A DNA stretch of 64,000 bases from Octopus vulgaris (lineage: Eukaryota). The position numbers are program-made. This document shows positions 1-63,000 of this stretch, one piece after another. Numbering within the stretch: the first letter of the stretch is position 1; each line of letters starts with the position of its first letter. The stretch is taken from assembly GCA_951406725.2 (NCBI GenBank), contig OX597818.1, positions 39,122,001-39,186,000 on the forward strand. The letters run 5' to 3'.

Positions 1-3000
1 GCAGTTTTGCAAAGAAAGAAGAAGTACCAGGTTTAAAAATAAGTACTGGGGTTGACTTGTTTGACTAAACCCTTCAAGGCAGCATCCCAGCATAGATGCA
101 GTCCAAAGACTAAAACAAGTAAAAAGCTAAAAGACATTCTCTTTTACTTGTTTCAGTCATTTGACTGTGGCCATGCTGGAGCACAGCCTTTAGTCGAGCA
201 AATCGATGCCAGGACTTATTCTTTGTAAGCCTAGTACTTATTCTATCGGTCTCTTTTTGCCGAACTGCTAAGTTACGGGGATGTAAACACACCAGCATCG
301 GTTGTCAAGTGATGTTGGGGGGACAAACGCAGACACACAAACATACACACACACACACACACACACACAGACACACACACATATATATATATATACATAC
401 ATATATGCGATGGGATTCTTTCAGTTTCCGTCTACCAAATCCACTCACAAAACTTTGGTCGGCCTGAGGGTATAGCAGAAGACACTTGCCCAAGGTGCCA
501 CGCAGTGGGATTGAACCCAGAACTATGTTGTTGGTAAGCAAGCTACTTACCACACAGCCACTCCTGCTATAATAACTGCTATATTTATGACTTCTAAGTC
601 ATGATGATGATTTTAGAATGTTAGTTTTGTCTTATTTTGAAAGTGAAACGCTTTATAACATTACAATTTAGATAACTGTCTTAAACAATTTTATATTTCA
701 GCCTGACATTTCTTATACACTCACTGGTCTTAACCAAGCCATGGATTATTTCCAAATCAATGAAAGGGGAGATATAAGCGTGAAAAGTAGCTTAATTTCA
801 GACAAATTCAAACAAACTGTTTATTATGTAAGTATGAAATCAATTCTTTAAAACAAATATCGTGGCTGAACTTGTGATAGGTGGCAAGAAACCACATTTG
901 TCCTCTGTTACTCTTTTTCTTCTCTCTTATACTTTCACTTTCGTCCTGATTTTCTCTTTCTCATTTTTTTCTTCCTTCCTTTCATTTAAAAAGCAATTGC
1001 AAAGGACATAGCAGTTCTATAAAATAATGTCTAAAGTAATCTTGTAGTTCAAAAGAGAGGAAGAAAAAAAAAAAGGCAAAAACACAATCAACTGCTATTA
1101 ATGAAGTTACCTCTTATATCTGAAAGTGATTATTCTTTCAACTATAAACAATTTTTGTGTGGCTTTCAAAATGTTAAAAATGAAAGAGCATTGAACCTCC
1201 ACATTTAAACAGCCTCATGAAACCATTGAGTATTTCTTCTACTGTAGAACATGCATACATACATAGATACATACATACATACATACATACATTGTCTCAC
1301 TCATACCAGCATGGAAGGCAGATGTTAAATGATGATGATGATATATATGCATATACACATATATTCATACATACATGTATGTATGTATGTATTATGTATG
1401 TATGTATGTATATATGTATGTATGAATGTATTTATCTATCTATCTATCTATCTATCTATCTATCTATCTATCTATCTATCTATCTATATATATATATATA
1501 TATATATATATATATATATATATATACACACACACACACATACAGGTACAACATTGATTTTCTAGAAACATTTTGTTCCAGATAATTGATATTTTTTCAA
1601 ACCAGAGCTGGTGACCTTAGCCAAGACGCTATAAATTTTAACAAAAGTCAGCTTTACTTAAATAATTATAAGAAATACAGTTCCTCTCCATTAGCTCAAA
1701 TCAGTGTGGATTCTAAAAGGCTCTGGGGCATCAGTGTACAGAAAGTCAAACATTAAACTGAAAGGTTGCCTGCTATCCTTCAGTAAAGTTGCAAGGAAAA
1801 GACTGACCACTGCTTCACCAGACTGTCAAATGGAAGTTATATAGCCAAAATTTCAAAGAAACTGTTCATTGTAAAAAGTGTATATATATATATATATATA
1901 TACACACACACACACACACACACACACACACACACATATATATATATATATATATATATATATATACACATACGATACATACATACATACATACATACAT
2001 ATATACATGCATATATATATATATATATATATATATATATATATATATATATATATATATATATATATATATATATATATATATATATATATATATACAT
2101 ACATACATATGGTGGCTGCCCCCTCGTTATTGAGTATGGCCATTGCACGAAGCTTAATCAATGTTGTTGTCATGCAATGCCTGTGCAAGAAGATTTTTTT
2201 TAAAGTGAGGAAAGGCTGTGCACAGAGTCAATCCCACTCACTAAACAACAGCAGCCATAATCCGAAAAGAAGAACACATCAACATCATCGGTAGCCACTG
2301 AGCCACAGGTTTTATGTCGGAATTATCCCAGTTACCTGAGTTACCTTCTCCTAGAAGGATGCCCTAACAAAGGCTAGGAGTCCTTCACTCCCAATGGTTT
2401 AACTGCTCGATCGGGTATTCAGTCTGATTATTTCTATGTCCCCGCGCATGATACAGCCTTAAGACATTTATTGGATGGCCGTTGACTCTCAAGAGTTCCT
2501 CCACCCTTTGACGTGTTTTGTTTTTCATCCCGCAGGGTGTCCAATAAACACCCTCCTCACCAAGCAAGCTTGGTGGGGTTGCCGGTTTAGTCACCGATGA
2601 CCTGGCCATGCAACAGGTTGTACTGGGTTACATGTTACCAGTAGCATTCGAAAGTGACCATACATGCATATATATACATACATATATGCATACATACACA
2701 CACACACACACACACATACACACACATATATGTATATATGTATGTATGTGTTTGTGTGTGCATGTGTGTGTATTGGGAAATGCAAACACAAAACTGTCCT
2801 GCCAAGTGAAGCTGAACCATTTGAGGTGCCACCTCCTACAAGCAAAACAGTATTTTATGGAGCATACTTAAAACTGATTGGCCATAGTTAAACTCACCAT
2901 GACTCAATTCTTCTCCCATGTAATATCTTTGGTCATTGTCAACAATGACAGGCGAACTAATATAATATATACATACATACATACATACATACATACATAC

Positions 3001-60000: not shown

Positions 60001-63000
60001 CCAAAATTTAAGGCCTTGTGCCTCCCATAGAAAGGATTATTATTAATATCATTATTATTATTATCACTATCATTATTAAGGCACTAAGTTGGCAGAATTG
60101 TTAGCATGCCAGATAAAATGCTTGGCAGTATTTCAATCCTCTTTACATTTTGAGTTCAAATTCTGCTGCAGTTGACTTTGCCTTTCACTCTTTTGGGACC
60201 AATAAAATAAATACCATTTGAGTACCAAGGTTGATTTAATCGACTAACAACCTTCCCGCAAAACTTTCTGACCTTGTACCCACCCATAGAAGAAAAGATT
60301 ATTATTATTATTATTATTATTATTATTATTATTATTATTATTGGAGCATCAGCTAAAATGCCATGCAGTATTTTGTTAAGGTTCTTTATATTCTGAGTTC
60401 AAGTCCCACCAAATATTTTTTCCTTTCAGGGTCTATAAAATAAAGTCCAAATCAAGTACTCTCTTTCATCCTCTTTTATTTTTTTTAGGGAGTCGGGTCA
60501 ATATTCTTTGTTAATTTCTTGCAGCATACATAAATAAATATTGTATATTTATGAACATCTCTGCCTTGACTATCTCATCATTTTTTCAAACACTGTACAT
60601 CAAGGGCTGCATTTTGAGTTGGAAGAGTATAATTTGAGGGACAACTGGCTGCTTCTTCTAGCAGAGCTGATGACCCTGTAGAAACTTTTACATTTTCTTG
60701 AAATAACTAAATGAAAACCATACATTTATATACTATTAGATTATTGTTTAATGAAAATAAAGCCTTAGATTCAAGTGAAAATAACATGACTGATATTTAG
60801 AGAAATTTTAGTGAAATCTTTCTGAAATCACATCAACTGTCTATACGTATTATAAGCCAAAGGGAGTCATTACACTAAAAATTTAATAAATACCAAGTTT
60901 CACCATATTCTAAACATAATATTTGATTAACAATCTGAATTAATTAATGTAATTACATTATGCTATTGTTTCTTCATATAATTCTTATCCTGATTTTAAC
61001 TAACCACAATAAAATATATATTAAAAAATTTTATCTGATGAAAACTTTGATCAAATCATTGATGCTGAATTTAGAGAAAATAAATTTTTAAATGCTCTTT
61101 TATATGTAACAGACACCAACACAATATCAAAACTTCAGTCTGAAAGGAGATGCTACTGCATTAAAGCTCTTTGATATTATACAAAGTGGGAAAATAAGAG
61201 TACAGAGAGCGCTGTATACTGAAATTGCAAACTCTTACACAGTAAGTCCTGACTGTTTATTTCTTCTTAAACATATATTTTCAACATGTGATGGCAAAAT
61301 AAATAATGATTTTCTTCTTAGAATCAATGTGTTTTTCTTTGAAAAAGATATACTCTATAGCTGCTGGGCCATTCTGCAGAGGCAGGCTTCATTCACCTTC
61401 AGATATATTTGGGATGCTTATAGAAGCTTTGTCATTCATAATCATGACTGCTCTTCCATTAAAAGCCATGGTCACAATCAATTTTTCATGGGTCTCTAAG
61501 CTGTATATAACACATACACACACACACATATTTTAGTTGAATAAAGCTAAACATAGTTTGGTTTTCCCGTTTTTTATTATAGTATTTTAATAAAATTAGC
61601 ACTTTCATACATAGTGTAGTACTCATCAGATTTCAAATATTTATTGAAAAATATACAGTTACACACATACGCACACACACATACATATATATATAAAACG
61701 AAAAATACCATGTATAAGTAAATATATTGTAACAAGTATTTTTGTCTAGAGCTTTGCAAAAAAAAAATAAATAAAGATCAGTATCTAATGTTTCTTGTTA
61801 TATATGTTTATTTTCTTCATGCAGTTCCAAGCCATTGTTGCTGATACCCGTGCACCAACAGTTGAAGCTTCTACAACTATTACAGTCAATGTAGTTCGTA
61901 ATAACTTCTCTCCTGTTTTTGGATTAAACTACTCGGTTACCATAGAAGAAAATTTTAATAAAGCTAATGCTCTTCTCAGCATGGTGGCAACAGACAGGGA
62001 TATAGTAAGTCTTGATGTCTAATTTATTTTCAAATGTCAGTATAAACACAAGCTTCTAAACACTTAGACAATACCATTGTCAAATTAAAAATGTTTTACA
62101 TGTTTTTTATGTTCTTATCCTCTCTCAACTATATTTCTTTAGTATACAAATACAAAGTTGGAAACTTTAGAAATTCTCCACTTCTAATAATATAATTTCA
62201 GGAGAAAAGGTGGCGAACAGGCAGAATTGTTAGCCCACCAAGTAAAATGATTAGTTATTGTTGTTTGTTCCTTCTTGAGCCATGCCTGGCTCATAAGGGC
62301 CGGTTTTCTGGTTTCCTTGGCGTATAGGTTCCCCACCCGGACGGGACGCCGGTCCGTCGCAGATGAGCTGCAAGATGCAGGAGGAAAGAGTGAGAGAAAG
62401 TTGTGGCGAAAGAGTCAGCAGAAGTTCGCCATTACCTTCTGCCGGAGCCGTGTGGAGCTTAAGTGTTTCGCTCATAAACGCACACACATCACCCGGTCGG
62501 AAATTCGAACCTGTGATCCCTCGACTGTGAGTCCACTGCTCTAACCACTAGGCCATGTGCCTCCACAATATGATTAGTAGCATTTCATCTGTCTTTATGT
62601 CCTGAGTTCAAATGCTGCCAGGGTTGACTATGCTTTTCATCCTTTCGGGGTTGATTAGTTGAATACTGGAGCCATTAAAATCAACTCATCCCTTCTCCTA
62701 AAATTGCTGGCTTTGGGTCAACGTAATTTCAGAGGAAGTACTGGTTGCATCCAATTTAAGGGACATTGAATAATTCTGACTCCTTTCAGATAATGCTAAG
62801 GTTAGTGCAGGAGGGAGAAGTGGATGTTGAGTCATGTGGTGTGTGAACCATAAAGGATTTTTTGAAATCCCAGATATAAATTGTCCTCATCATCATTTAA
62901 CGTCCGCTTTCCATGCTAACATGGGTTGGACGATTTTGACTGAGGGCTGGCGAACCAGATGGCTGCACCAGGCTCCAATCTTGATCTGGCAGAGTTTCTA

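What the first reader, a model, noticed from the sequence alone, without database searches (positions are those of the whole stretch)
702..62004. Giant cadherin built from a strict two-exon, all-phase-0 cassette
Seen: 32 exons alternate A,B,A,B without exception. All 31 introns are phase 0 and fall at the same two positions in every repeat (just after the DxD position, and just before strand F). Known: clustered protocadherins encode the ectodomain in one large exon, and Fat/Dachsous genes have irregular, often very large exons. Inference: the gene grew by tandem duplication of an exon pair offset from the domain boundary. Skipping any even number of consecutive exons would keep both frame and fold and create a chimeric EC domain, allowing length-tunable or combinatorial ectodomains. 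From memory (unverified), octopus and Capitella have a poorly characterised cadherin with more than 80 EC repeats ('CDHX'), and this may be part of it.
Basis: partly seen in the sequence, partly recalled or inferred. Interest (0 to 1): 0.85.

Follow-up and report, generated by a model that had tools for sequence, protein, structure and literature searches.

The report
Octopus giant cadherin: periodic two-exon gene
The window holds 32 middle exons of an already catalogued giant octopus cadherin gene whose strictly alternating, frame-neutral exon pairs are real and look like an ancient, mollusc-wide relic of internal duplication, not a shown splicing device.

Summary
On the + strand, 32 exons alternate B (41-51 aa) and A (58-64 aa) from 702 to 62004. 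All have AG/GT borders, all 31 introns are phase 0, and the exons sum to 1692 aa. The exons tile residues 2954-4645 of "uncharacterized protein LOC115211772 [Octopus sinensis]" (7530 aa) with no gaps, 1672 of 1692 residues identical.

The gene is therefore already annotated. It is probably the 77-EC, sucker-enriched octopus cadherin (CDHX) that I saw only in passages of two citing papers.

New here:
- A exons encode strands F-G, the linker and strands A-B; B exons encode the domain middle.
- Relatives are giant cadherins of gastropods and bivalves, not Fat, Dachsous or CDH23.
- The 16 domains are collinear with a Haliotis protein, so the array predates the cephalopod-gastropod-bivalve split.
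- Domains alternate weakly in two classes, hinting at a two-domain, four-exon duplication unit.
- Linkers read xRNxxxP instead of DxNDN and lack DRE.

Length-tuning by exon skipping is logically possible but has no supporting evidence. The joined model was never built or searched; all searches were exon by exon.

The parts
702..827 (+). exon B1 (42 aa; middle of an EC domain, strands C-E)
   Evidence: 100% to P0272 2954-2995
3153..3341 (+). exon A1 (63 aa; strands F-G, linker, strands A-B to DxD); 27th of 69 linker units of P0272
5695..5817 (+). exon B2 (41 aa)
   Evidence: motif scan; 97.6% to P0272 3059-3099
5987..6172 (+). exon A2 (62 aa); linker reads KD instead of RN, as RD or KD in 10 of 13 rows of the homologue alignment
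7926..8048 (+). exon B3 (41 aa); donor GTTAGT
8306..8491 (+). exon A3 (62 aa)
11206..11331 (+). exon B4 (42 aa)
12472..12660 (+). exon A4 (63 aa)
14093..14221 (+). exon B5 (43 aa); left out of the unnamed model P0012 but present in P0272
14382..14567 (+). exon A5 (62 aa)
16937..17089 (+). exon B6 (51 aa, longest B)
21175..21366 (+). exon A6 (64 aa)
23063..23191 (+). exon B7 (43 aa)
23728..23913 (+). exon A7 (62 aa)
27603..27743 (+). exon B8 (47 aa); acceptor AAG
29196..29384 (+). exon A8 (63 aa)
30741..30872 (+). exon B9 (44 aa)
33450..33638 (+). exon A9 (63 aa)
   Evidence: aligned to CELSR1 291-357 through P0003
37788..37925 (+). exon B10 (46 aa); left out of P0003, present in P0272, best hit collinear in Haliotis
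38440..38628 (+). exon A10 (63 aa)
41701..41832 (+). exon B11 (44 aa)
42368..42553 (+). exon A11 (62 aa)
43334..43465 (+). exon B12 (44 aa)
46008..46187 (+). exon A12 (60 aa); no DxD (ends ITNP), linker HN
49166..49297 (+). exon B13 (44 aa)
51774..51956 (+). exon A13 (61 aa); lacks the AxDxG aspartate
54040..54165 (+). exon B14 (42 aa); left out of P0003, present in P0272
54330..54518 (+). exon A14 (63 aa)
56893..57024 (+). exon B15 (44 aa); acceptor AAG
59008..59181 (+). exon A15 (58 aa); no DxD (ends VVQN)
61113..61241 (+). exon B16 (43 aa); left out of P0003, present in P0272
61825..62004 (+). exon A16 (60 aa); 42nd of 69 linker units of P0272; the gene runs on beyond the window

Best explanation
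The window is an internal stretch of an Octopus gene for a giant atypical cadherin. The gene is catalogued as LOC115211772 in O. sinensis; the window comes from that species or a very close relative. It is probably the gene called CDHX in the literature.

What the exons encode. The 32 exons encode linker units 27 to 42 of at least 69. Each A exon is a complete joint: strands F-G of one EC domain, the linker, and strands A-B of the next domain up to its DxD loop. Each B exon is the domain middle (strands C-E).

Origin (inferred). The strict B,A alternation with phase-0 introns is a preserved trace of how the array was built. A genomic unit carrying these two intron positions was duplicated in tandem, probably in steps of two domains (four exons). 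This happened before cephalopods, gastropods and bivalves diverged. Since then each domain has kept its own identity and the intron positions have stayed put. By default the exons are constitutive.

Function (inferred). The protein is a very long single-pass membrane tether. Its linkers keep the residues that I recall form calcium site 3 (the N of the linker, DxD, and the D of AxDxG). They have lost most residues of sites 1 and 2 (both D of DxNDN, and DRE). This should make a chain that holds less calcium and bends or stretches more than a classical cadherin.

Shown: gene identity, exon structure, cadherin fold, family, collinearity, motif pattern. Inferred: duplication unit, constitutive splicing, calcium stoichiometry, tether function.
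For: Exon structure and identity.

Cadherin nature:
- Pfam on single exons and on whole homologues (38, 16 and 14 Cadherin stretches).
- Best solved relatives by sequence are CELSR1 and clustered protocadherins.
- An AlphaFold model of a homologous two-domain piece has mean pLDDT 87.5. Its best PDB fold matches are CDH23, PCDH15, protocadherins and CELSR1, E 4e-17 and weaker, all 38 listed rows being cadherins.

Family:
- Relatives with far higher scores than Fat are mollusc proteins of 3000-7900 aa.
- 25 of the 265 proteins held at that point had at least 8 [RK]NxxxP and at most 3 DxNDN. Every named one is a mollusc.
- True Fat-like proteins with EGF and laminin G exist separately in molluscs (P0346, P0320).

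Age:
- 17 of 32 exons have their top hit on one diagonal of Haliotis P0151. The figures are 9 of 32 in Tegillarca, 9 of 32 in Sinanodonta and 8 of 32 in Elysia.
- A position-specific RD/KD linker is seen in 10 of 13 aligned homologues.
- No DNA-level repeat family covers an exon: 18 direct families, all intronic.

Conserved borders elsewhere: predicted proteins of Elysia (2 places), Sinanodonta (1), Haliotis (1), and Mya (7 places with a gap of exactly 0) and Pinctada (2) lack exactly one B unit between two complete A units.

Two-domain period:
- Same-parity units are more alike than opposite-parity units. A exons: 29.8 vs 27.1%, 18 of 10000 shuffles reach this. B exons: 27.3 vs 23.0%, 1 of 10000.
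- In 5 homologues, 0 of 3000 shuffles reach the observed value, for each exon type.

Motifs in the 16 window joints: N of the linker 15, basic residue before it 13, P 16, DxD 14, D of AxDxG 13, E of xEx 8, first D of DxNDN 1, second D 1.

Membrane anchor: homologues carry a hydrophobic span near the C-terminus followed by a conserved tail.
Against: - No RNA evidence was available, so constitutive splicing is an assumption.
- P0272 is a computed model that lacks a membrane span at its end.
- The parity signal is small. For B exons it comes mainly from one class being better conserved (odd-odd 30.9, even-even 23.7, odd-even 23.0%). It could therefore reflect alternating constraint rather than history.
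- Conservation of intron positions in other molluscs is inferred from holes in predicted proteins, not from genomes.
- Equating the gene with CDHX rests on two cited sentences and on size (at least 69 versus 77 domains).
- The calcium-site assignment is recalled from classical cadherin structures. The model has no ions and I could not inspect its coordinates.
Confidence: 0.75

Rival explanations
1. The alternating all-phase-0 cassette is used by the animal. Regulated skipping of an even number of consecutive exons would fuse the front of one EC domain to the back of a later one, giving ectodomains of tunable length or combinatorial identity.
For: - 31 of 31 introns are phase 0 and exon types alternate without exception. 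Any skip therefore keeps the frame, and any even skip keeps an A-B-A order.
- B-to-A introns are shorter than A-to-B introns (median 862 vs 2353 nt, Mann-Whitney p 0.02). B and the following A may be recognised as a pair.
- Predicted proteins from other assemblies do drop exons exactly at these borders.
Against: - The drops seen are single B exons (odd skips). These would put strand F directly after the DxD loop and break the fold. They occur in fragmentary or computed models, so they look like prediction errors.
- The one full-length-like octopus model has all 32 exons.
- Each domain is individually conserved in order across molluscs. That is not expected if domains were interchangeable spacers.
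- Donors are strong (20 of 32 GTAAGT).
- No transcript data could be consulted.
Confidence: 0.12
2. The gene is the octopus orthologue of a known giant cadherin (Fat, Dachsous or CDH23) with an unusual exon layout.
For: - Sources name many relatives 'protocadherin Fat 4-like'.
- The best fold matches include CDH23.
Against: - Those names are automatic.
- Family members list only cadherin-type Pfam entries and no EGF or laminin G, which the true Fat proteins in the same tables carry.
- Scores to mollusc relatives (1681 bits for Haliotis) far exceed those to Fat (about 500 bits or less) for the same 800-residue query.
- The linkers are not DxNDN (0-3 per protein against 8-46 in the 29 giant cadherins over 5500 aa outside this family that I counted).
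- There are at least 69 domains, against 34 in Fat and 27 in Dachsous and CDH23 (the last three numbers recalled).
Confidence: 0.03
3. The array is a recent, cephalopod-specific expansion, like the octopus protocadherins, made by repeated duplication of one exon pair.
For: - Perfect regularity of the exon pairs.
- Octopus is known for cadherin-family expansions (PMC7656900, passages).
Against: - Repeats share only 28% (A) and 25% (B) identity on average.
- No nucleotide repeat family includes an exon.
- Domains are collinear one-to-one with gastropod and bivalve proteins.
Confidence: 0.03

Closest known systems
CDHX, the 77-EC-domain cadherin of Octopus bimaculoides (Wang and Ragsdale 2017, seen only as cited in PMC6110919 and PMC6339937)
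   Same: An octopus cadherin of extreme length. The O. sinensis model has 69 detectable linker units and is cut short at its C-terminus.
   Different: Nothing known to differ. Identity is unproven because no CDHX sequence or locus was available. I could not see whether that paper describes the exon layout, the linker motif or the mollusc relatives.
Fat / Fat4 atypical cadherins
   Same: Very long single-pass cadherins. Automatic names of the relatives say 'Fat 4-like'. Weak Pfam match to Cadherin_FAT4_N in homologues.
   Different: No EGF or laminin G domains in family members. About twice as many EC domains. Linkers lack DxNDN and DRE. Separate Fat orthologues exist in molluscs. Regular small exons instead of the large irregular exons I recall for Fat genes.
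Tip-link and brush-border cadherins (CDH23, PCDH15, CDHR2)
   Same: Long non-classical cadherins that form extracellular filaments. Some linkers are calcium-poor or calcium-free, and these bend or stretch (PMC5120219, passages). They are the best fold matches. Mollusc homologues end in T-T-M-L or similar, which resembles a PDZ-binding end (the comparison is recalled).
   Different: In those proteins non-canonical linkers are the exception. Here nearly all joints are non-canonical and share one motif. There are 11-27 domains against at least 69. No orthology.
Clustered protocadherins
   Same: Cadherin superfamily. Expanded in octopus. Among the best solved-structure matches by sequence.
   Different: Six or seven EC domains in one large exon (recalled) against two small exons per domain. 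Diversity comes from alternative first exons, not from internal cassettes.
Repeat genes built from symmetric exons (titin, nebulin, collagens; recalled)
   Same: Many similar exons of equal phase, so that exon number can change without a frameshift.
   Different: Those exons usually match module borders. Here the pair is offset from the domain border and both introns lie inside the fold. That points to internal tandem duplication rather than exon shuffling.

Membership tests
Cadherin superfamily | Tandem EC domains recognised by the Pfam Cadherin profile | tested here: met
   Single exons: 8 of 16 A and 5 of 16 B match PF00028 (best 6.9e-05 and 1.5e-05), all below the gathering score as expected for half domains. 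Whole homologues at about 80% identity have 14 and 16 stretches.
Cadherin superfamily | Seven-strand beta-sandwich EC fold | tested here: met
   The model is of the homologous piece P0012 1276-1503, not of the window's own joined exons. pLDDT 87.5. All 38 listed PDB matches are cadherins.
Cadherin superfamily | Canonical calcium motifs xEx, DRE, DxNDN, DxD, xDx (as listed in PMC5120219) | tested here: not met
   Only partly present. Of 16 joints: DxD 14, xDx 13, N of the linker 15, xEx 8, each D of DxNDN 1. No D at the first DRE place in 16 B exons (read). The fold is cadherin but the chemistry is deviant.
Fat | EGF and laminin G domains between the EC array and the membrane | tested here: not met
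   Not in the window. Absent from homologues that reach the membrane span (P0157, P0153) and from the precomputed lists of family members, but present in true Fat rows.
Fat / Dachsous / CDH23 | One-to-one orthology | tested here: not met
   The closest relatives are a separate mollusc family. No tree was built.
Classical cadherins | Catenin-binding cytoplasmic domain (Pfam PF01049) | tested here: not met
   No PF01049 in any family member's list or in P0157 and P0153. The octopus C-terminus itself was not seen.
Clustered protocadherins | Whole ectodomain in one large exon | tested here: not met
   Two exons per domain. The defining feature itself is recalled.
CDHX (octopus 77-EC cadherin) | About 77 EC domains in an octopus gene | tested here: inconclusive
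   69 linker units detected in the truncated O. sinensis model. The window holds 16.
CDHX (octopus 77-EC cadherin) | High expression in suckers | not testable with these tools
   No expression data available. The claim comes from passages in PMC6110919 and PMC6339937.
Mollusc giant cadherins with RN linkers (family delimited here) | Dozens of EC domains with xRNxxxP linkers, almost no DxNDN or DRE, DxD kept | tested here: met
   Window. P0272: 41 [RK]NxxxP and 3 DxNDN. 25 of 265 held proteins fit the rule.

The most novel reading that the evidence does not exclude
The frame-neutral, strictly alternating cassette is not only a relic. Octopus tissues might skip even numbers of exons to make tethers of graded length with chimeric EC domains. 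The uniform RN linker would make every such chimera compatible, because all joints share one calcium-poor chemistry. That would be a new way of generating adhesion-molecule diversity, distinct from alternative first exons (protocadherins) or mutually exclusive exons (Dscam).
Probability: 0.1. Interest if true: 0.75.

Novelty: already known. Interest (0 to 1): 0.38.

Why it matters
The gene is already catalogued and the protein type has been noted in print, so the object itself is not new.

What seems under-described:
- It belongs to a conserved mollusc-wide family, not an octopus oddity.
- Roughly sixty consecutive joints share a non-canonical linker that should bind less calcium.
- The gene keeps a near-perfect record of how a seventy-domain array was assembled.

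Three consequences:
- It offers a clean natural case for how repeat arrays grow by internal duplication with introns inside the fold.
- It is a practical warning that gene predictors silently drop phase-0 exons in such genes.
- It offers a candidate long elastic tether for sucker or other epithelia that can be tested.

I found no description of the exon layout in the searchable library. The key paper and all supplements were out of reach.

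Tried and rejected
- A single exon searched against the word-indexed protein set among longer proteins found nothing, because only proteins up to 2000 aa were searched.
Names for the unnamed models P0003 and P0012, and possible isoforms of the Gigantopelta and Biomphalaria relatives, therefore stayed unseen.
- Rfam found nothing in the window.
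- Pfam found nothing in five intronic ORFs that looked like transposon remains.
- The octopus genome paper and Wang and Ragsdale 2017 are not held. One search was mis-typed.
- Literature searches for a two-exon-per-repeat cadherin layout gave nothing relevant.
- Rejected as an assembly artefact or pseudogene: all 32 exons are open, diverged from one another, and match a public model.
- Model coordinates could not be inspected, so contacts of the linker arginine remain unknown.
- The joined 1692-aa model was not built, printed or searched.

Full report
**The window.** It is 64000 bases with no N and 33.5% G+C.

**Checking the observation.**
- I listed all stop-to-stop reading frames and searched them with iterated profiles seeded from two frames carrying cadherin-like motifs. 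This found 16 related segments, all on the + strand.
- A second family of shorter segments lies between them. Fourteen were found by profile, one by motif (B2) and one by a profile search of the remaining gap (B8, E 5.7e-09).
- I then listed every AG and GT around each segment with its phase. At the homologous place each segment has an in-frame acceptor and a strong in-frame donor.
- The resulting table has 32 exons in the order B,A...,B,A. It has 32 AG acceptors and 32 GT donors, and all lengths are divisible by three. B exons are 41-51 aa and A exons 58-64 aa. Introns are 160-4149 nt.
- Twenty of 32 donors are GTAAGT.

**What I left out.** Every search was made exon by exon or with stored database proteins. 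What a search with the spliced 1692-aa protein would add remains open.

**Independent confirmation.**
- A profile of the 16 A exons, searched against 1.84 billion representative proteins, hit 20316 proteins.
- Local exon-by-exon BLAST against the best 150 showed two unnamed fragmentary models. P0012 (1915 aa) carries B1 to A7 and P0003 (2803 aa) carries B8 to A16, each at about 75-97% identity and contiguous at my exon borders. B5, B10, B14 and B16 are missing from them.
- tblastn of both models against the window found only these places, nothing before 702 or after 62004, and nothing on the minus strand.
- A later search reached longer proteins and returned P0272, named by NCBI 'uncharacterized protein LOC115211772 [Octopus sinensis]', 7530 aa, on a 136-Mb contig.
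- All 32 exons tile P0272 residues 2954-4645 with zero gap at each of the 31 junctions. 1672 of 1692 residues are identical and 17 exons are fully identical.
- The window is therefore this gene in O. sinensis or a very close relative. The A exons are the 27th to 42nd of 69 linker units that my exon profile detects in P0272.
- P0272 starts with a signal-peptide-like hydrophobic stretch but ends without a membrane span, so it is cut short.

**What the exons encode.**
- Alone, 8 of 16 A exons and 5 of 16 B exons match Pfam Cadherin below the gathering score, as half domains should.
- Whole homologues have 14, 16 and 38 Cadherin stretches.
- In the alignment of P0003 to mouse CELSR1 (8vy2), the A9 counterpart covers 'Y.L.I.A.D.G.P' (strand F), strand G, the linker 'D.NDN.P.F', strands A and B, and 'A.DAD'.
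- I aligned a two-domain piece of P0012 (homologous to A1 through A3) with 12 homologous pieces from other molluscs and folded it. Mean pLDDT is 87.5, with two beta sandwiches.
- Its PDB matches are CDH23, PCDH15, protocadherins, CELSR1 and desmocollin, E 4e-17 downwards.
- On the model the A|B borders fall 2 residues after DxD, before the next strand. The B|A borders fall in the first two or three residues of strand F.
A is a joint module and B is the domain middle.

**Family.**
- With the first 800 residues of P0003 as query, the best named relatives are mollusc proteins: Haliotis rubra 1681 bits at 33% identity, then Elysia, Tegillarca, Sinanodonta, Biomphalaria, Gigantopelta and Aplysia. 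Vertebrate and insect Fat proteins score about 500 bits or less.
- With a part of the Elysia protein as query, relatives of 6465-7916 aa appear in Plakobranchus, Nucella, Pinctada, Gigantopelta, Ylistrum, Octopus, Mya, Elysia crispata and Biomphalaria pfeifferi.
- Their precomputed Pfam lists hold only cadherin-type entries. The Fat rows in the same tables add EGF and laminin G. Pfam on two members that reach the membrane agrees.
- Sources call many of them 'Fat 4-like', but these are automatic names.

**Linker motif.**
- Family members have 0-3 DxNDN, 9-49 [RK]NxxxP and 0-8 D[RYF]E. Ten of the 23 I segmented carry none of the first, and P0012 and P0003 none of the last.
- The 29 giant cadherins over 5500 aa that fall outside the family have 8-46 DxNDN and 21-48 D[RYF]E.
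- In the window's 16 joints, the asparagine is present in 15, a basic residue precedes it in 13, and proline and an aromatic residue follow in 16.
- DxD is present in 14, the aspartate of AxDxG in 13 and the glutamate of xEx in 8. Each aspartate of DxNDN is present in only 1.
- No B exon has an aspartate at the first DRE place.
- The list of canonical motifs is from PMC5120219 (passages). Which residue serves which calcium site is my recollection. On that basis site 3 is kept and sites 1 and 2 are largely lost.
- In P0272 the three DxNDN lie in the first 900 residues. In four other molluscs one DxNDN lies just before the membrane.

**Age and mode of growth.**
- The 16 domains are on average 28% (A) and 25% (B) identical to each other, and no DNA repeat family includes an exon.
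- 17 of 32 exons have their best hit on a single diagonal of the 4287-aa Haliotis protein, which offers about 40 repeat positions. The figures are 9, 9 and 8 of 32 for Tegillarca, Sinanodonta and Elysia.
- The aligned homologues share position-specific features, such as an RD or KD linker at the A2 position in 10 of 13 rows.
- The array therefore existed, domain by domain, before these classes split.
- Mean identity is higher at even than at odd distances. A label-shuffling test gives 18 of 10000 (A) and 1 of 10000 (B) for the window, and 0 of 3000 for both exon types in each of five homologues.
- For A exons both classes exceed the cross-class value (29.0 and 30.7 vs 27.1%). For B exons mainly one class does (30.9 and 23.7 vs 23.0%).
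- This fits duplication in two-domain steps but could also reflect alternating constraint.
- Similarity matrices of A and B exons correlate for neighbours on either side (r 0.38 and 0.29), as expected since an A exon spans two domains.

**Intron positions elsewhere.**
- I had no mollusc genomes. Segmenting 23 homologous proteins with the two exon profiles shows complete A units abutting with a gap of -2 to +2 residues, meaning one B unit is cleanly missing.
- In one search this occurs in P0012 (4), P0003 (8), Elysia (2), Sinanodonta (1) and Haliotis P0002 (1).
- In one search it occurs in Plakobranchus (1), Pinctada (2) and Mya (7 with a gap of exactly 0). It occurs nowhere in P0272.
- The simplest reading is that predictors skipped a phase-0 exon at the same borders in those genomes. 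It is also a warning about such models.

**The splicing idea.**
- The arithmetic holds: any skip keeps the frame, and an even skip keeps the A-B-A order.
- There is no positive evidence for it. The skips seen in models are odd and would break the fold.
- The octopus model includes all exons, donors are strong, and every domain is individually conserved.
- B-to-A introns are shorter than A-to-B introns (median 862 vs 2353 nt, p 0.02; 8 of 16 against 0 of 15 are under 600 nt). This may bear on exon pairing but proves nothing.

**Literature.**
- 'CDHX' occurs as a whole word in five held papers, one of them relevant: PMC6110919. [quoted passage not shown]
- PMC6339937 (passage) says O. bimaculoides has a cadherin with 77 EC domains that is highly expressed in suckers, citing the same source.
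- The source paper and the octopus genome paper are not held, and supplements are closed.
- I found no text on the exon layout.

**Verdict.** The feature is real and regular, in a gene that is already catalogued and probably already named. The interpretation as a cadherin built from an offset exon pair stands. The duplication history is much older than implied and possibly in two-domain steps. The splicing hypothesis is open and, on present evidence, unlikely.

Noticed in passing
window 24463-26400 and 19715-20670: Very long (AT)n arrays inside two introns, about 1.9 kb and 1 kb. They also appear as 'inverted repeats' of each other and as long low-complexity ORFs in all frames.
   Followed up: partly
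window 55573-56109; related 63056-63175: A G+C-rich tandem repeat of 61 nt (8.8 copies, with higher-order periods of 122 and 245) in an otherwise A+T-rich intron. A related 64-nt unit lies downstream of the last exon.
   Followed up: no
window 31437-31762 and 63543-63862; also 6292-6694, 46992-47362, 58550-58923; 135-565, 36316-36558, 50324-50718: Several interspersed repeat families of about 130-330 nt, 86-92% alike in their best pairs, scattered through introns. They are probably short mobile elements. Translated pieces recur in the ORF list.
   Followed up: partly
window 18464-18928 (+) and 53183-53992 (-): Intronic ORFs of 155 and 270 aa that looked to me like ends of retrotransposon proteins. 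Pfam found no family.
   Followed up: yes
window 58038-58511: A tandem repeat of 29 nt, 16 copies, 93% matches, in the intron before A15.
   Followed up: no
all 31 introns of the model: Introns after B exons are shorter than introns after A exons (median 862 vs 2353 nt, p 0.02). Eight of 16 against 0 of 15 are under 600 nt.
   Followed up: partly
window 46008-46187 (A12), 59008-59181 (A15), 51774-51956 (A13): Three joints depart further from the pattern. A12 and A15 have no DxD, and A13 lacks the AxDxG aspartate. The same holds in the related model P0003, so these joints may be fully calcium-free.
   Followed up: partly
related proteins P0157, P0153, P0269, P0268, P0271, P0275 (C-terminal 400-500 residues): Mollusc homologues share a basic R/K-x-K-R-Q site before the last, canonical EC domain, a conserved span 'DPWAAL...IIILL', and a tail motif 'PSFLKEYETQSLNMYVPPDE'. 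Three end in TTML and others in TTIL or LTQL. These could be a furin-like cleavage site and a PDZ-binding end. The octopus C-terminus was not seen.
   Followed up: no
related proteins P0012, P0003, P0273 and others: Public gene models of this family often lack single B units exactly at exon borders. Domain counts taken from such models are likely too low.
   Followed up: partly
alignment A1, rows window:42368-42553 and window:46008-46187: The alignment tool wrote M for the first codon (GTG, TTG) of two internal exons because it applies bacterial start rules. The true residues are V and L.
   Followed up: yes
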